From assembly GCA_000182565.2 (NCBI GenBank), contig KQ257454.1: 64,000 nt of DNA. The stretch is one strand, 5' to 3'. The notes below the pieces were generated by a model that ran no database searches, was not told where the DNA came from, and was given only the letters and a program-made list of their open reading frames with translations. The number at the start of each line of letters is the position of its first letter. Position 1 is the stretch's first letter. The stretch comes from Spizellomyces punctatus DAOM BR117. Its lineage: Eukaryota. The position numbers and the translations under genes are program-made. Positions 11,300 through 23,744 of the stretch are shown here, piece after piece.

Positions 11300-11391
11300 T
11301 TCCCTGGGCGGGGTTCGAACCCGCGATCTTTGCATGGCATAAGGAGACCTTCCTTATAAGTACAAAGCCTTAACCACTAGGCCACCAGGGA
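11300..11391 (-). tRNA. tRNA-Ile(UAU) with a 19-nt intron after position 37
   Basis: Cloverleaf: acceptor TCCCTGG/CCAGGGA, D stem GCCT/AGGC, anticodon stem TTGTA/TGCAA with loop CT-TAT-A[intron]A, T arm GCGGG-TTCGAAC-CCCGC, discriminator A. An oligo-T run lies downstream. Confidence 0.9.
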
Positions 11392-16814: not shown

Positions 16815-17040
16815 CAATAACGCGCCCATCATCCTTAACGGCCTCCGTGCGCCTAGGCATAGATTCAACTAGTTTAAAGAGGTTTTCAGGAGTTATGGCC
16901 GCCCACTCTTCCTCCACGATGGCCTTCAATTCTTTTAAATTATGAGGATTTATGCCTATACACCCGTTTTTTCAAGACCGACCACAGGTCTTCGATGGGA
17001 TTAAGATCTGGAGATTGTGGTGGCCATGGGAGCAACGAGG
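16815..17040 (-). mobile_element. Tc1-like transposase C-terminal fragment, frameshifted
   Basis: LPWPPQSPDLNPIEDLWSVLKKRV, then after a frameshift NLKELKAIVEEEWAAITPENLFKLVESMPRR. SPDLNPIE is the Tc1 catalytic-Glu motif. Confidence 0.9.
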
Positions 17041-17276
17041 ACGTCATTCTGGAGAAACCACTGGCGTGAAACCCGGAATGTCTCAATGAGCGCGTTATCT
17101 TTGTTGGAAGAAGAAAACGCCTGGAACTGCGGCTTGATGCAATGTTTGGTTTTATGCTAGCCAGCATTGGGCACGACGATGGGAGAGGATGTCACATGAA
17201 GCACGTGATGTTCTTCACTAATGTGCACTAGCCACGCTGTGTGTTGAGCACAAGCCCAGACGGAATTCCAAGCGTC

Positions 17277-18386
17277 ATGGATCCCATTGAGATAGACGGC
17301 TCGATTTTGGAAGGCGGAGGACAGATCCTCCGAAATTGCGTGGCTTACTCTGTGTTGTCAATGCGTCCTATATATATTCATTCTATTCGCGGAAACCGCA
17401 AGAACCCTGGGTTACAGCTGCAACATCTCACTGGGATTCTCCTAGCTGCTCAATTATCAGAGGCAATTGTGTCCGGTCTGGAAAAGAACTCCCTCACACT
17501 CACCTTCCAGCCCACACGTCCCCAAATATCTATGGACAAAACCAACGCAGGACCTAAAACATACGTAGCTGAGATCTCAAGCGCCGGTGCTTGTACTTTG
17601 GTTCTGCAGTTAGCTTTACCCATCGTCCTTTACAAGGCAACAAATCTGCAAATTATTGTAAAGGGTGGCACAAATGTCCCTTTGTCACCTAGTGTCGATT
17701 ATCTTCAAAGAGTTCTTTTCCCGACCTTGTCTTTTGCTTTTAGCATCCCAGGCGTGAATTTGTCCGTTGTAAAACGAGGGTTCATGCCCGCAGGTGGAGG
17801 GGAACTCCACGTTACCGGACACACCATACAAGGTCGGCAGGGATGGAAGCCGTGTACGATCTTGGATAAGGGTCAAATTGTATCATACGAAGCGATCTTT
17901 ACGGGATGCTGTACTCAACAATTCTTGTCTGAATTGACGTCTCAAGTCAGTAGACGACCACAGTATGTTTTGCTTTGTGAGGATTTGCACATTGTAGCAA
18001 AGCACACTTCACAATCGCAGCTACTTCTCGTAGCAAGAACCGATACAGGATGCATCTTTGGAGCTTCAGCTTTAGGAGGAAAGTACCAAAACGGAGAAAA
18101 GTTGTTTCGTTCGGCGGAAAAAGTGCTTCTTAAACAGCTCATGGGCAGATCTTGCGTTGACGAGTACCTGCAAGATCAACTTATCGTCTACATGGCATTA
18201 GCGAAGGGCCAATCTAATGTTCGCACGGGACCTTTGACTTTACACACAAGGACTGCTATACACTTTGCGCAGGTCATGACGGGCGCGATTTTCAACATCA
18301 AAAGAGATGAGGATAAACTGGATTGCGATCAGTCCCACGAATCTTATGTCATTACTTGCGATCCTTGTACATCAGGGGACATTTGA
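17277..18386 (+). CDS. RTCA: RNA 3'-terminal phosphate cyclase, class I (RtcA/RTCA), intronless
   Basis: Motifs IDGSILEGGGQILR, RGNRKNPGLQLQH, GGTNVPLSP, RGFMPAGGG and VDEYLQDQL, plus TLHT carrying the adenylated His. Confidence 0.92.
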   Translation: MDPIEIDGSILEGGGQILRNCVAYSVLSMRPIYIHSIRGNRKNPGLQLQHLTGILLAAQLSEAIVSGLEKNSLTLTFQPTRPQISMDKTNAGPKTYVAEISSAGACTLVLQLALPIVLYKATNLQIIVKGGTNVPLSPSVDYLQRVLFPTLSFAFSIPGVNLSVVKRGFMPAGGGELHVTGHTIQGRQGWKPCTILDKGQIVSYEAIFTGCCTQQFLSELTSQVSRRPQYVLLCEDLHIVAKHTSQSQLLLVARTDTGCIFGASALGGKYQNGEKLFRSAEKVLLKQLMGRSCVDEYLQDQLIVYMALAKGQSNVRTGPLTLHTRTAIHFAQVMTGAIFNIKRDEDKLDCDQSHESYVITCDPCTSGDI

Positions 18387-18834
18387 GATTGGCGAGTCGG
18401 ATCACCCTCTTGCTGTGGCAGTTGTTGGGACTGCTGATGTTTTGATAATGGGGGGAAACGACGCTGTTGTACCGAGTGATGGCTCTTTTCATCCACCGGT
18501 TGTTCTGCATGAGTTGTGCTTGATTCGCGGCATCCTTTTCGAGACATGGATTGTTGCAATGGACTGGGCAACCAGAAAGCACACAATTGCTGTCAAGATC
18601 GGAGCGAAAATGGCCACCTGACCTACCGTACAAATGAGTACTATCACGGCGGCAATCAGTATGATGGAGATAGTAAAGGTCAACACAACCCTCGGAGAAG
18701 CATTGGGGACGTTGGCACCTAAACAATGACATTTGCAATTTGTTGCGCGGTAGTAGGATCCAAAGACGGATCCTCTGCCTCTACGTCAATAAGATAGGCA
18801 TCGTTGTAGAGGTGTGAGGATAAAGGAATACTCA
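18352..18834 (-). pseudogene. Frameshifted small two-TM membrane-protein relic
   Basis: Stitching adjacent frames gives CKCHCLG..VVLTFTISIILIAAVIVLICTVGQVAIFAPILTAIV/AFWLPSPLQQ. At least two frameshifts are needed. Confidence 0.4.
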
Positions 18835-19093
18835 TCTTCTTTTCCCTTCTTGGTTACTTTATATCGCGAGATCCTCCCGTTTCTATAATTAGCTTTGGTC
18901 TGGCTCCATTTAAACAAGAAGCTACATATCCTTTGTAAGCACTAGGACAAAACATATCCACCAGTAGTTGAGTAGTAGACCACTAGAATATTGTATTACA
19001 AGTTATAGTTGTTTGTAAACTAGGGCTTTTGCTTCCAGTACCACATCTGTGCTGTCTTTGTTTTCGAAAAGCCTGCTCTTGCACTCGATTTAA

Positions 19094-19183
19094 TGATCGA
19101 GACTACTATAGTGTATTGGCAATAACAAATGTCACAACACAATACACCAGGGAATAAACCGCGCGACAACCGGTTCGGAAAAG
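19094..19183 (-). ncRNA. Fanzor1-type omega-RNA (75-nt scaffold 19183-19109 plus ~15-nt guide)
   Basis: CTTTTCCGAACCGGTTGTCGCGCGGTTTATTCCCTGGTG...CACTA matches the S. punctatus Fz1 scaffold as I recall it, at 35 of the first 39 nt and the terminal CACTA. Stems GAACCG/CGGTTT and GTGTATTG/CAATACAC are present. Confidence 0.8.
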
Positions 19184-19240
19184 CTAAGCTACTACTAGAC
19201 AATTATACACGCAATACGTAACGGTTGTTCTAACCGGATA
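19109..19240 (-). mobile_element. ORF-less ('ghost') Fanzor mini-element, copy 1, TA at both ends
   Basis: 57-bp leader plus omega-RNA scaffold. The boundaries are defined by homology to 34711-34833. Confidence 0.7.
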
Positions 19241-19665
19241 ATTGCCCACCACCACACACGGTCCCTACTAGGCCTTGATCTGGAACTCTTGATGGCATTG
19301 AAGCCAGACTCTTGCATCCAGGAGCGAATCGACTGGGCAGCGTCACAAGCCAGAGGATGTTCAGTGACAAGGCTTGGAGACTAAAAAAACTGCATGTCAG
19401 CGACAGAATGACAGAATGAAAAGAAATGCCATCAGTACTTACCAACCAAGCTCAACAAATGTGGCAGCATAATAACAGCTTTGTTGGTTCCGAGGCTGCA
19501 CTGGTTCCAGTTGGTTGTAATCGGGTGGGCGAGGTCCTCGGCACCAGAGCAGTACTCTCATGATGATGGACTTGAGAGTGCTGTGTGAGTGTTGGGCAGA
19601 TGCTTCGAGAGTCGAGGGATATAGAAACAAGATGGGGGGCAGACAACGGGGGGGTTTATATAGAA
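19230..19665 (-). pseudogene. Small spliced transcription unit or gene relic running into the ghost element
   Basis: TATATAAA at ~19660, ATG at ~19561 and a GTAAGT...GCTGAC...TTTTAG intron (~19442-19381). The spliced ORF stops inside the element's left end. Confidence 0.35.
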
Positions 19666-20947
19666 AAAAGAGTGGATAGATTGAGTCATGGAGCGTCATG
19701 CAGGTGGCAAACTGCAGAATATTCCTCTCATAGATGGCCGCAAAGGGATAGTAATTGCAATCCGTTCTTGGCCGCACCTTTGGACCCGTCTTTTTGTTTA
19801 TCTTCGTGAGGTTCACAATAAATGTGGTTAATTCAACTGGCTGCAATGCTCCGTGGCACTGACATTTCTATTTTCCCACACACTATGGATAAGCCACATT
19901 ATCTAATGTCCGCACCACGTCTGCTTGCCACAACCGAATCATCCACAAGGTCCCATTGATTTGCAATATTACCATGTTCGTTTTCTCATGTACAATGTAG
20001 AATGGTTCCCTCATGACGGTTTTCAGGAAATTCCCACAATTGTTCTCACTGCGCATCGCTCTGCGCATCTCTTGTCATCCGGGTCTTTCGCAAGGACAAT
20101 TGTCTTGGAATGATTGCCAAACTCGACATGTACAACGTGGAATGCATCTCGTTCAGGTCTCTTGCAGAGGCAAGTGTTTTAGAATGAGTACCACGCTCGA
20201 ATTGTACAATAATCGTCACAAACATGTATTCGTTTGAATGTTTTGTCGAGTCCGAGTACCACGATGAAAACCCGACGAGCATTTGAACGCGTGTGCAATG
20301 TACATCTCATGACGTTTTCCCCCAAGGTCTTGGCAGCCTTTTAATTCTACGCCCACCTCACCCACTAGGAGTCTAGGCCACTAGTGTTATACATCTCCTA
20401 TAAACCTATTCATCGGACACGCCAAGCACTGGTTTGATTTCAACTATACTTTCATAGGATATAACAAACAATAAACTGCAGCATCGTTTGCATTTTCCAG
20501 GTCTTCTTTCAAGTTCATCGCACACATGGGTTCACATTAGTTGTATATGTTTTGCCAGTATTTAGTTTGCCCACTCACTGAGTATACTTCCATTCGAACC
20601 ACTTTTCCGGTGGATATATCGATACGAAATTATAGTTGTTTGTAAATTAGGGCTTTTAGATTTGGTACTGGAGCATAGTGGGTGGGGGTGCGTTTTTCAG
20701 CTGCTATGCCGTCTACAGCTGGAATTTGAGTCCCACCCATACACTCAAAAACCCCTTTTGTAACAATTTCTATATCGAAAGACTTTAGCAACAAGAAAAA
20801 TAACCATGGGATGCCCTCAGGCAGGTCTATCACTCGCTAGACATTACATCGAGGAGAAAGGGACGGAGGGGTATCGCTCCTGAGGAATGGACTCCCTCGG
20901 CGCTCAAAGCGCTTGCGACTTGTCCCTCTAATTCACTAGGGAATTAG

Positions 20948-21372
20948 GGACAGTTATAACATTTCGTATGTTATTTACAAAGCTTCTTGGACAGTCTCAA
21001 CATTCCCTATGTTCTTTACAAAGCAATTTTGGGCTACCAGAGCAGGACAGCTACAATATTTTGTTGTTATTTACAAAGCTTGTTAAATTCATATCTACAT
21101 GTATCTCCCTATAGAGTAAAAGACTAATAAAGCAATGATCTGATGGACTGTCAATAATTAGTAAGTTTGCGAGCAGATTGCTTACCCATTTACCACTACC
21201 CATGATTGCAACCACTACAGCGGACAGATAGAACATTTTATGTTGAGAATTTCATATTTTATTTGCAAACCATTTTGGGCCACCACGGCGAGGACAGACA
21301 GAACACTTCTTATGTTATTTACGAAGCTCCCTGGACAGTCTGAACATTCCCTATGTTCATTACAAAGCGTTA
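20948..21372. repeat. ~40-bp degenerate repeat cluster related to the 38-bp array
   Basis: About six copies of ggacagNNNNaacattNNNtatgttatttacaaagc. Compare ggacagtaacaagattccgtacgttgttgatgagc at ~11623. Confidence 0.75.
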
Positions 21373-23744
21373 CTAAGGTGTTCCGAGCACACGCACAAAA
21401 AACTTTAGCTGCGTCGCCTATTGGCCTATTTACCGTTCAAGCATAGCAGAAACATTCCGTTACCCAGGTTTGATGGCAACCACAATATACCAGTTCAAAC
21501 CGCTGCTATTCCAGAGGTAAATAGGTCGCAGAGGAGGTCGCGCTGAAGGCAACGAAGGCGTCCAAACTTGCGATCGATCAGATCCTGCGTCAGTTATGAA
21601 AGACCGTAGAAACGTGGGCCTCCGTAATCTTGAGGGAACAATGGACACTCCGCTGTTCATATCGCCTGGAAAGTGGGGTTATTGTCACCGGCAATGTTGG
21701 GACGTGGCTTCTCCCAAATTGCTTTTCCGGTTTTTCTCGGCTCCTTGAAATCTGCCGTACAGTGTTTCTTTGGAGGGTAAGGAAACGCCCAATTATATTG
21801 TATTGTTGGGTATTGATGTCATCACACTTTGTAGATCGCGTTGGAAGCCGTTGCGCGGGAGGTCGGGTGTGATGCGATCGGCAGTCCAACCCGCGAACCT
21901 TTGAGAGTAGCTGAGACATATGCATAGAGGCCAAGAAAACCACTTGGGTGGATGACCCTGATGAGTAAGTTGGGTCACGCCAAGGGCACGCATTGCCATT
22001 TGCTCAACTGTCTACAGCAGCTAATTCACCACCAACTGAATTTGGACTACCACCACTTGAACCAGTTGGACCACCTAATGGGTACGGCTGGTAAACCACC
22101 ACCATTAACCATTAATACCACAGACAAGTCTAATCATAAATATATATATAAATCAGCGGCAATTGCCTTGGCATGATTACCATGTTTGTCATTTACAATA
22201 ATGGCAGAAACATGCATTCGCTTGAATGTTTTTGAAGGGAAGAACTAGGGGTTTTCCAAAAAAAAAAAAAGTCATGAGGCACACATTCCACATTGTAAAT
22301 GACGACTAAGATAGTCATTTCAAAACGATTGCTGCCGCAAAAGACCTGGAGAACATGCGTGGCAAACAGACTTTGTGGGCGGAGGTATTAGATAATGTGG
22401 CTTGTAAGTGTGTCGATCATTGAATTACATAACTGTTGAGCTATCAACAAGGCCCGACAGGTCTCTAGCTGTTCTACACTCTGGTTGCTAGGCCACTAGA
22501 GCGTTTGACTTCTACCCCCACTACACCCACTAGCATGTTATTCCTACAGCCCACTAGGCCACTAAAGAATACTTTGTGAGTTACTATTGCTTGTGAGTTA
22601 AGGCTTGTATTGTCGCTACCAAAAGGGTTGAATGGTACATAATTTTTTCAGCCGCCTCGCCCCTCATAGAGCATAGTGTGTGGAGGTGGTGGTTTCTAGC
22701 TACGTCGCGTCTACAGCTGTGATTTCAGTCCAACCCTATTCATTAGGTTGCGGGATGACATGAGGCAATAGGGTACAAGTGTTTATGGACAGATGGTCAC
22801 TATATGTCTCAAGGGAAAGTCGAGATAGTCTATACGACCCTGATCGTGTCAATGACTAGTATCAGCTTGATTCACGCATTGGCAGAATGATTTCTATGGT
22901 TACCCTAACCCTCTCCTTTAGATTCGGGGCTAGTTCATCATGTTATGTCTGCTCATGTGCTCATGGGCCAGTAGGAGATACCAACAACATTTTGAATCGC
23001 ATCTTCTTGTCGATTTGGGGCACGACAGCAAAGGGTAAACTATATGACAGAAATGGGGCATTTTGGCCAGCGGTCGATTCAGTTTGTTTATCAACGTTTA
23101 CTGCGACACTAAAGGATCTAATAATTTGTCGGAAAACTACCACATGGACGTTCGCCACCACTGCGTACGCAAACTCATAGATGCAAAGAGGGTTTCTGTC
23201 CAGGATATCTCATTTGCAAAGATGGTCCCGATACACTGACCACGCGCCCACCAAACCTACGGTTTGTCAAACACAGTCTCGCCATGAGAGTCGTGGGATA
23301 TATAGGTTTGTAGTGTTTTTATTGATGAGCCAAGATCATCTAGACAGTCTGAGGTTGGTGAGAATTGTTATAAATGATGGTTGTTTGTAAGTTAAGGCTT
23401 TTAGGATTCGCTACCCATGAACGTAAATAATCGTTTTTCAGCTGCGTCGCCCCTTTAGAGCATGGTGTGTTACAGTTGTTTAAAAGCAATTCCTTGCAAA
23501 ACATAACCAAGCTTTGAATAAAATAATACTTACAGCCAACACAAAGTGGCTTGAACAGCTCGAGTTGCAGTTCCATGCATTAGACTAGTTTCTGTGACAT
23601 TTACAGACTCTAAAGACATTCTTTGGTAGGATGATGTGATGGATGGAAAGACATGCGCTAAATGTACAAGAGATGAAAACGCACAGCCTTAATTCCAACT
23701 GCTAACAACCATCTTGTTCACGGGAATATCCTTCCGATCAACGT

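What the first reader, a model, noticed from the sequence alone, without database searches (positions are those of the whole stretch)
19094..19240. Stand-alone Fanzor omega-RNA ('ghost') gene with a rebuilt second stem
Seen: the minus strand 19183-19109 is exactly 75 nt, CTTTTCCGAACCGGTTGTCGCGCGGTTTATTCCCTGGTGTATTGTGTTGTGACATTTGTTATTGCCAATACACTA. It folds into stem 1 (GAACCG/CGGTTT) and stem 2 (perfect 8-bp GTGTATTG/CAATACAC, extendable). Recalled knowledge: the S. punctatus Fanzor1 scaffold begins GTTTTCCGAGCCGGTTGTCGCGCGGTTCAATCCCTGGTG and ends CACTA, and ORF-less ghost loci are known to express such RNAs. Here 35 of the first 39 nt match, the stem-1 changes keep pairing, and stem 2 has different sequence but the same length and closure. 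No Fanzor ORF lies upstream, only a 57-bp leader with TATAAT about 25 nt before the RNA start. Inference: this is a self-contained guide-RNA gene that could load a Fanzor nuclease in trans. The predicted guide is TAGTAGTCTCGATCA (19108-19094).
Basis: partly seen in the sequence, partly recalled or inferred. Interest (0 to 1): 0.92.

Follow-up and report, generated by a model that had tools for sequence, protein, structure and literature searches.

The report
Known Fanzor "ghost" guide-RNA element
This is one copy of the already published "ghost Spu-1" elements of the chytrid fungus Spizellomyces: a 777-base mobile-element remnant that has lost the Fanzor nuclease gene but keeps its 75-base guide-RNA scaffold, so it is real but not new.

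Summary
The quoted 75-nt sequence is on the minus strand at 19183-19109. It folds as described (z = -3.3).

It is not a mini-gene with a 57-bp leader. It is the right end of a 777-bp element (minus 19885-19109). The element is bounded by imperfect inverted repeats (21 of 30 match; 0 of 300 shuffles reach the match) and preceded by CA, which makes CATA, the published SpuFz1 TAM.

Saito et al. 2023 describe this class: 134 "ghost Spu-1" loci in S. punctatus, each with a CA motif, 30-nt repeats, a 75-nt scaffold, a 14-15-nt guide and a distinct stem 2. Four ghost scaffolds worked with SpuFz1 in human cells. A 2026 paper catalogued 126 ghost scaffolds.

All 13 protein-contacting ωRNA nucleotides named by position in the 2023 text are identical here. 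C40/G70, in the dispensable part of stem 2, are U40/A70 and still pair.

Protein look-ups place the window in Spizellomyces. Public runs show the element is highly multi-copy.

Verdict: correct recognition, already known. Side observations: an internal TATA box, a canonical 62-nt GT-AG intron, and frame-inconsistent "hypothetical protein" gene models. Locus-specific expression could not be tested.

The parts
19109..19885 (-). Whole ghost Spu-1-type element, inverted repeat to inverted repeat (777 nt), without a Fanzor ORF
   Evidence: Inverted-repeat pair found. Ends aligned. Single copy in the window. 212 contigs of run X1 lie on it.
19884..19887 (-). CATA at the left end: the conserved CA (19887-19886) plus the first TA of the repeat. 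It equals the published SpuFz1 TAM.
   Evidence: Sequence. TAM and CA motif from PMC10432273 sections 7 and 8.
19856..19885 (-). Left-end inverted repeat (TAGTGTGTGGGAAAATAGAAATGTCA...)
   Evidence: 20 of 26 and 21 of 30 positions match the reverse complement of the right end. 0 of 300 shuffles of the 2 kb upstream reach 21 of 27.
19109..19183 (-). 75-nt ωRNA scaffold: stem-loop 1 (19176-19156), 6-nt linker (19155-19150), stem 2 (19149-19109). Its last 30 nt are the right-end inverted repeat.
   Evidence: Folds. 13 of 13 position-named contact nucleotides are identical.
19094..19108 (-). Predicted 15-nt guide (flank DNA outside the element): TAGTAGTCTCGATCA
   Evidence: Position directly after A75. 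The paper gives 14-15-nt guides taken from the flank. The guide is unique in the window, and CATA plus guide is absent from the window.
19657..19662 (-). TATA-box-like TATATA(AAC) inside the element, about 100 nt upstream of the first ATG (19561). Candidate Pol II promoter of a precursor transcript (inferred).
   Evidence: Motif scan. Sequence.
19381..19442 (-). 62-nt canonical spliceosomal-type intron (GTAAGT ... CTGAC ... TTTTTTTAG)
   Evidence: Sequence. Contigs that join 19443 to 19380 exactly are in runs X1 (3 contigs), X19 (1) and X12 (1) (table 5). Annotated paralogous gene models read across the same junction.
19230..19561 (-). Spliced 89-codon ORF (ATG 19561, stop 19232-19230). Probably not a conserved protein.
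   Evidence: Paralogous models P0008 and P0010 change frame relative to it after GCK and after LVGTV.

Best explanation
The locus is one copy of the non-autonomous 'ghost Spu-1' element family of Spizellomyces. The element is 777 bp and has lost (or never had) the Fanzor1 gene. It keeps the two terminal inverted repeats, the CA/CATA motif at the left end, and the 75-nt ωRNA scaffold that overlaps the right end.

Shown here: the anatomy, the fold, the identity of all position-named protein-contact nucleotides, the multi-copy nature, and the genus of the host.

Inferred from the published work on the family:
- A transcript that runs through the right end into the flank is trimmed to roughly 90 nt (75-nt scaffold plus 14-15 nt of flank, TAGTAGTCTCGATC(A)).
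- This RNA is bound in trans by SpuFz1 made from one of the genome's Fanzor loci.
- The RNP would cut DNA that carries CATA directly followed by the guide sequence. That is the junction expected at an element-free copy of this very site (CATA from the left flank joined to the right flank). This is the logic of TnpB/IS200-IS605 homing or retention.

My own further inference: the precursor is made by Pol II from a TATA box inside the element (19662) and carries a 62-nt intron.
For: - Sequence and fold: (z = -3.29; 1 of 200 shuffles folds as well).
- Element ends: the inverted repeat 19108-19134 / 19860-19886 is the longest of 14 pairs in 1.7 kb. 21 of 30 positions match. 0 of 300 shuffles reach the match. 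CA precedes the left repeat, making CATA.
- Published description of the class matches point by point. PMC10432273 section 7 was read whole; passages of sections 8-11 and 33 were read. It reports 134 ORF-less loci, 30-nt inverted repeats, CA upstream of the 5' repeat, a 75-nt scaffold spanning the 3' repeat, 14-15-nt guides, a CATA TAM, a distinct ghost stem 2, and four ghost scaffolds active with SpuFz1.
- Position-named nucleotides U16, G17, U18, C19, G20, G22, A29, C32, C34, U35, G37, A72 and A75 are 13 of 13 identical. The 6-nt linker 29-34 is unpaired in the fold. C40/G70 are U40/A70 here and pair in the fold.
- Multi-copy: 212 contigs of X1 and 142 of X2 lie on the 961-nt stretch at 80% likeness or more. 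The unique flank has one contig of depth 36 that runs from the flank into the element to 19137 with 0 differences.
- Host: window proteins share a 90% cluster with Spizellomyces sp. 'palustris'. Paralogous copies of the element interior are annotated in S. punctatus DAOM BR117.
- No Fanzor in or near the element: 0 of 9 ORFs of 200 aa or more in the window have a TnpB/Fanzor domain. The 61-aa open frame next to the scaffold has no Fanzor match in the PDB sequences.
Against: - Size: the element is 777 nt, whereas the paper gives about 550 nt of conserved region plus two 30-nt repeats. Even without the 62-nt intron it is about 100 nt longer.
- The predicted stem 2 has three single unpaired bases and a 4-nt loop. 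I could not compare this with the published '3-nt bulge' drawing.
- Most laid copies lack one base at 19162, in the CG run of stem-loop 1 (X1 depth 20192 of 21370; X2 93.7 of 123.2). This copy therefore differs from the majority form there.
- I could not see the published list of 134 loci (supplements closed). That this locus is on the list is inferred.
- No whole genome was held, so Fanzor genes in this genome rest on the paper.
- Expression, processing and binding of this particular RNA were not tested. Only contigs were available, and they cannot show RNA ends or strand.
Confidence: 0.88

Rival explanations
1. It is a ghost Spu-1 copy, but an inert relic. It is no longer transcribed or loaded, and its guide has no target, so it has no present function.
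For: - The inverted repeats are only 20 of 26 identical.
- The element is longer than the published consensus size.
- PMC13434818 (passages) reports that ghost scaffolds distant from the canonical one edit less well, so not every copy is equally competent.
- The paper found no transposase for Spu-1 elements.
Against: - All 13 position-named contact nucleotides and both stems are intact.
- The only named differences (positions 40 and 70) are a compensated pair in a region shown to be dispensable.
Confidence: 0.25
2. One reading: a self-contained mini-gene whose own promoter (TATAAT at 19207-19202) starts transcription at 19183, independent of the rest of the element.
For: - An A/T-rich TATAAT lies 24 to 19 nt before the scaffold start, a spacing that would suit a eukaryotic TATA box.
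- The published RNA species is 88-90 nt.
Against: - The unit bounded by inverted repeats starts 700 nt further upstream.
- No run of T follows the guide. The first T4 is at 19070, 24 nt past the guide's last base (19094).
- In the two annotated paralogous copies the gene models run through this stretch up to the base before the scaffold.
- Contigs of run X19 (guessed RNA) are continuous from 19380 to 19189 and one runs to 19143. This fits a longer precursor, but these contigs may come from any copy.
Confidence: 0.1
3. The element is chiefly a small protein-coding gene (like the annotated SPPG_09412 and SPPG_09407), and the ωRNA-like part is merely its 3' untranslated region.
For: - There is a TATA box, an ATG and a canonical intron, giving an 89-codon spliced ORF.
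- Two annotated paralogous models of 80 and 144 aa share exon 1 (25 of 44 identical, with in-frame gaps) and the start of exon 2 (22 of 23 identical).
Against: - The three copies leave the common frame at different points. P0008 does so after GCK. P0010 does so after LVGTV and again later. They end at different places.
- There is no relative outside these ghost copies among 1.84 billion representatives. 5 hits reached E of 0.001 or better; 1 is a ghost copy. Of the other 4, the two I looked at are repeat proteins, and I did not look at the last two.
- The 61-aa open frame next to the scaffold has no Fanzor match among PDB sequences. My Pfam scan of the element's frames failed on a stop codon and was not repeated.
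Confidence: 0.05
4. Chance resemblance: an ordinary hairpin-rich intergenic stretch.
For: Rfam has no match at the locus. In 17000-21000 there is 1 match at E of 10 or better, and it is unrelated and elsewhere.
Against: - 13 of 13 named positions are identical.
- The repeat ends exactly at the scaffold's last base.
- CATA lies at the other end.
- There are hundreds of near-identical contigs in public runs.
- The host genus is right.
Confidence: 0.01

Closest known systems
Ghost Spu-1 elements of Spizellomyces punctatus DAOM BR117 (Saito et al. 2023, PMC10432273; catalogued as gst1-gst126 in PMC13434818)
   Same: - ORF-less.
- Terminal inverted repeats of about 30 nt.
- CA before the left repeat.
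- 75-nt scaffold across the right repeat.
- 15-nt guide in the flank.
- Distal stem 2 that differs from the canonical one.
- Multi-copy.
- Same genus.
   Different: - 777 nt instead of roughly 610 nt overall.
- One base more at 19162 than most laid copies.
- Whether it is one of the listed 134 loci could not be looked up (supplements closed).
Canonical SpuFz1 ωRNA of Fanzor-encoding Spu-1 loci (structure 8GKH as described in PMC10432273 section 10)
   Same: - 75-nt length.
- Stem-loop 1, a 6-nt linker A29-C34, and stem 2 closed by U35...A75.
- All 13 nucleotides reported to touch the protein.
   Different: - No Fanzor ORF upstream.
- Positions 40 and 70 are U and A instead of C and G, and the distal stem 2 differs. 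That part is reported to be flexible, not contacted and dispensable.
Bacterial TnpB ωRNA / IS200-IS605 elements and their ORF-less derivatives (PATEs). Named from general knowledge, not tested here.
   Same: - The guide RNA is encoded at the right end.
- The guide is flank DNA.
- The TAM lies at the left-end flank.
- ORF-less copies depend on the nuclease in trans.
- The predicted target is the element-free site.
   Different: - Eukaryotic host.
- No pseudoknot in the ωRNA (stated in the paper's Extended Data Fig. 10 legend).
- No TnpA-type transposase known for Spu-1.
- The interior has a spliceosomal intron.

Membership tests
Ghost Spu-1 element / SpuFz1 ωRNA | 75-nt scaffold that ends at the element's right end, followed by a 14-15-nt variable guide | tested here: met
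   19183-19109 is 75 nt. The right inverted repeat ends at 19109. The flank is unique in the window. Definition.
Ghost Spu-1 element / SpuFz1 ωRNA | Identity of the nucleotides that contact SpuFz1 (U16 G17 U18 C19 G20 G22 A29 C32 C34 U35 G37 A72 A75) | tested here: met
   13 of 13 identical at the same positions (against the text).
Ghost Spu-1 element / SpuFz1 ωRNA | Two-stem architecture with a 6-nt single-stranded linker 29-34 | tested here: met
   In the MFE and centroid folds, 8-28 is stem-loop 1, 29-34 is unpaired and 35-75 is stem 2. z = -3.29.
Ghost Spu-1 element / SpuFz1 ωRNA | Ghost-type stem 2 ('3-nt bulge instead of an 8-nt hairpin loop') | tested here: inconclusive
   The fold has unpaired U45, U48 and U63 and a 4-nt loop. 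The figure and the sequences are not in the text held, so there was no direct comparison.
Ghost Spu-1 element / SpuFz1 ωRNA | 30-nt terminal inverted repeats | tested here: met
   21 of 30 match. 0 of 300 shuffles reach 21 of 27.
Ghost Spu-1 element / SpuFz1 ωRNA | Conserved CA upstream of the 5' repeat (CATA TAM) | tested here: met
   The minus strand reads ...TTATC CA|TAGTGTG, with CATA at 19887-19884.
Ghost Spu-1 element / SpuFz1 ωRNA | No Fanzor ORF between the repeats | tested here: met
   The longest minus-strand ORF inside is 135 aa. The 61-aa frame has no Fanzor hit in the PDB sequences.
Ghost Spu-1 element / SpuFz1 ωRNA | About 550 nt of conserved interior shared among copies | tested here: inconclusive
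   The interior is shared with many contigs and with two annotated paralogues. However, this copy is 777 nt overall, and likeness falls off toward the left end.
Ghost Spu-1 element / SpuFz1 ωRNA | Host genome is S. punctatus and carries Fanzor1 genes | tested here: inconclusive
   The genus Spizellomyces is supported. No whole genome is held, so Fanzor genes were not searched. None lies in the 64-kb window among ORFs of 200 aa or more.
Ghost Spu-1 element / SpuFz1 ωRNA | Expressed as an 88-90-nt RNA and bound by SpuFz1 | not testable with these tools
   Only assembled contigs were served. They cannot show ends, strand or level.
Ghost Spu-1 element / SpuFz1 ωRNA | Listed among the 134 published ghost loci / 126 catalogued scaffolds | not testable with these tools

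The most novel reading that the evidence does not exclude
Ghost elements may be small Pol II transcription units: a TATA box, a spliced 62-nt intron and an mRNA-like precursor whose 3' end is trimmed to the ωRNA.

Contigs in two runs that the tool guesses to be DNA join the two exons exactly. If those runs really are DNA, some genomic copies lack the intron precisely. That would mean ghost guide-RNA genes are also copied or homogenised through spliced RNA (retro-copying). This route is not described for Fanzor or TnpB elements in the papers I read.
Probability: 0.1. Interest if true: 0.6.

Novelty: already known. Interest (0 to 1): 0.15.

Why it matters
The class matters. ORF-less guide-RNA genes widen the target repertoire of a eukaryotic RNA-guided nuclease, and they have already served as scaffolds for genome editors. 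This particular copy adds nothing to that, because the family, its number of copies and its activity in trans are in print.

How ghost ωRNAs are transcribed may still be open. The 2023 main text does not contain the word 'transcription'. The interior of this copy offers a testable answer: a TATA box, a canonical intron, and gene models that read through to the base before the scaffold.

Tried and rejected

- Whole-genome search: no genome is held for this window.

**Searches for related RNA and DNA**
- Rfam at E of 10 or better over 17000-21000: nothing at the locus.
- Other copies in the window: none. The 38-nt core with up to 3 mismatches gives 1 match, which is itself. blastn of 861 nt gives only chance hits of 28 nt or less.
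- Related loci in JGI metagenome contigs: 0 hits for a scaffold pattern and 0 hits for a 24-nt interior word. No independent copies could therefore be aligned, and no covariance model or covariation test was made.
- Printed scaffold sequences in three papers' main texts: none found. The '35 of 39' count stays unchecked.

**Protein-level checks of the interior**
- Fanzor remnant in the interior: the 61-aa frame 19380-19198 gives only an unrelated PDB hit at E = 0.22.
- A Pfam scan of three element frames failed because one reference held a stop codon. I did not repeat it.

**Locus-specific expression**
- In run X19 (guessed RNA) no contig lies on 19099-19131 or on the flank. In X2 there is next to none. 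With contigs this says nothing either way.
- The kinds 'DNA?' for X1 and X12 are guesses. In X1 there is zero cover on the intron, a GT..AG joint, an uncovered left flank and a strong rise toward the right end, all of which would also fit RNA. I therefore draw no conclusion on intron-less DNA copies.

**Small shares in other runs**

Full report
**Observation**

Its fold has three parts:
- stem-loop 1 at positions 8-28;
- a 6-nt unpaired linker at 29-34;
- a long stem 2 at 35-75, whose core is the perfect 8 bp GTGTATTG/CAATACAC.

For the 75 nt, dG is -23.4 kcal/mol against a shuffle mean of -13.8, z = -3.29, and 1 of 200 shuffles folds as well. With the 15-nt flank, z = -2.61 and 1 of 200. The window holds no second copy. 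The 38-nt core with up to 3 mismatches matches only itself. blastn of 861 nt gives only chance hits of 28 nt or less. Rfam has nothing at the locus.

**Real extent of the unit**

The '57-bp leader' is not a boundary. The longest of 14 inverted-repeat pairs in 18300-20000 joins 19108-19134 to 19860-19886. Read on the minus strand, the unit starts ...TTATC-CA|TAGTGTGTGGGAAAATAGAAATGTCA and ends ...TGACATTTGTTATTGCCAATACACTA|TAGTAGTCTCGATCA.

The two ends match at 20 of 26 and 21 of 30 positions, and the element is 777 nt from repeat to repeat. None of 300 shuffles of the 2 kb upstream reaches 21 of 27; the best is 18. One repeat ends exactly at the last base of the scaffold. The other is preceded by CA, so the left junction reads CATA (19887-19884).

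**Comparison with print**

I read section 7 of Saito et al. 2023 (PMC10432273) whole, and passages of sections 8-11, 33 and 40. For S. punctatus DAOM BR117 the paper reports:
- 42 Fanzor loci and 134 'ghost Spu-1' loci that lack the ORF;
- about 550 nt of conserved interior flanked by 30-nt inverted repeats, with a conserved CA before the 5' repeat;
- a 75-nt region across the 3' repeat similar to the ωRNA of Fanzor loci;
- RNAs of 88-90 nt, meaning the 75-nt scaffold plus 14-15 nt of variable flank;
- a CATA TAM;
- ghost ωRNAs with a distinct stem 2;
- four ghost scaffolds that work with SpuFz1 in human cells;
- a discussion of ghost loci as a guide repertoire used in trans.

A 2026 paper (PMC13434818; passages) extracted 126 unique ghost scaffolds of 74-76 nt and tested representatives.

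The main texts do not print the scaffold and supplements are closed. I therefore could not make the direct alignment or check '35 of 39'. Section 10 does name ωRNA nucleotides by position: U16, G17, U18, C19, G20, G22, A29, C32, C34, U35, G37, A72 and A75. All 13 are identical here. The two named ends of the distal stem 2 that the protein does not touch, C40 and G70, are U40 and A70 here. They still pair in the fold. The 'rebuilt second stem' is thus the published property of the ghost class, in a region shown to be dispensable.

**Host and copy number**

The window is eukaryotic nuclear DNA. It encodes RNA 3'-phosphate cyclase (17277-18386), eIF3h, a PPR protein and a TRAPPC11-like protein. 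None of the 9 ORFs of 200 aa or more is TnpB/Fanzor-like. Three of four window ORFs that I looked up are in public protein sets on a 1.54-Mb contig. One shares a 90% cluster with a protein of Spizellomyces sp. 'palustris'.

Laying the contigs of four coded public runs on 19000-19960 at 80% likeness or more gave these counts:

| Run | Contigs laid |
|---|---|
| X1 | 212 |
| X2 | 142 |
| X19 | 17 |
| X12 | 14 |

- In X1 the unique flank is one contig of depth 36 that runs into the element to 19137 without a difference.
- The summed depths over 19099-19362 are in the tens of thousands and fall toward the left end.
- The element is therefore a large repeat family, best conserved at its right half.
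- Variants with another distal stem 2 exist, shown by a loose end at 19143 in X2 and X19.
- Most laid copies lack one base at 19162.

**Interior of the element**

The minus strand carries, in order:
- a TATA-like TATATAAAC at 19662;
- an ATG at 19561;
- a 62-nt segment with all marks of a spliceosomal intron (GTAAGT ... CTGAC ... TTTTTTTAG, 19442-19381);
- a spliced 89-codon ORF that stops at 19230.

Contigs that join 19443 to 19380 exactly occur in X1 (3 contigs), X19 (1) and X12 (1).

A search of 1.84 billion representative proteins with the exon-2 frame found 5 proteins at E of 0.001 or better. Only one is a true relative, the 80-aa P0008. Of the other four, the two I looked at are unrelated repeat proteins. 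I did not look at the remaining two.

P0008 and its cluster mate P0010 (144 aa) are 'uncharacterized proteins' SPPG_09412 and SPPG_09407 of S. punctatus DAOM BR117. They are gene models on paralogous ghost copies that read across the same exon junction. The three copies leave the common frame at different places and end at different places. P0010 stops at the codon that abuts the first base of the scaffold. I therefore take the ORF as not conserved, and the transcript as a likely non-coding precursor. The 61-aa open frame next to the scaffold is not a recognisable Fanzor remnant.

**Mechanism**

Shown here: the anatomy, the intact contact nucleotides, family membership by structure and host, and multi-copy status.

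Inferred from the published family: the RNA is trimmed to scaffold plus TAGTAGTCTCGATC(A), is loaded by SpuFz1 in trans, and directs a cut next to CATA. In the published substrate the target starts directly after CATA (key resources passage of PMC11423790). Joining this locus's left flank (...CATA) to its right flank (TAGTAGTC...) gives precisely TAM plus guide match. The predicted target is therefore the element-free form of this site, as in TnpB homing. CATA plus guide does not occur elsewhere in the 64 kb.

My own inference: transcription starts below the internal TATA box and passes the intron and the scaffold.

**What stays open**

- Whether this copy is expressed, since contigs cannot tell.
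- Whether X1 and X12 are truly DNA. If they are, intron-less genomic copies exist.
- Whether a 2-fold-depth X2 contig that joins 19105 to 19891 with 7 other letters between them is an element-free allele.
- Whether the locus is on the published list.

**Verdict**

This is a correct recognition of a ghost Fanzor ωRNA locus with a wrong boundary, and it is already known. Interest is low. The only fresh angle is the Pol II-like, intron-bearing interior.

Noticed in passing
window 19381-19442 (minus strand): A 62-nt segment with canonical intron signals lies inside the ghost element. Contigs in X1 (3), X19 (1) and X12 (1) join its two sides exactly, and another X1 contig skips 66 nt. X1 and X12 are only guessed to be DNA, so this may be splicing or intron-less genomic copies.
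   Followed up: partly
window 19105 / 19891: One X2 contig (depth 2) joins 19105 to 19891 with 7 unrelated letters between them, so it lacks the whole element (table 5c). It could be an element-free allele in another strain. The junction is not the clean CATA+flank expected.
   Followed up: no
window 19230-19561 (minus strand); proteins P0008, P0010: The public S. punctatus annotation carries 'uncharacterized protein' gene models (SPPG_09412, 80 aa; SPPG_09407, 144 aa) that are read from the interiors of paralogous ghost copies. Their frames disagree with each other and with this copy.
   Followed up: yes
window 19162 and 19199: Most laid copies lack one base at 19162, in the CG run of stem-loop 1 (X1 depth 20192 of 21370; X2 93.7 of 123.2). 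Nearly all have G where this copy has A at 19199 (X1 67961 of 68261).
   Followed up: no
window 19200-19380, run X12 (another coded organism label): Contigs 95-99% alike cover the interior 19200-19380 and 19521-19596. Two of them diverge at 19189 and 19200 into other sequence instead of continuing into the scaffold (tables 7 and 8). The interior may also occur without the ωRNA end.
   Followed up: no
window 19089-19094 (minus strand): ATTAAA, a poly(A)-signal-like hexamer, starts at the last base of the 15-nt guide. It may be chance, since it lies in flank DNA.
   Followed up: no
window 11300-11391 (minus strand): ARAGORN calls a 92-nt tRNA-Tyr with anticodon 'ata'. The length suggests an intron-bearing tRNA-Tyr whose anticodon was misread.
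   Followed up: no
window 19887-23500: There is no stop-to-stop frame above 137 aa on either strand for 3.6 kb on the left side of the element. The ghost sits at the edge of a gene-poor stretch downstream of the RNA 3'-phosphate cyclase gene.
   Followed up: no
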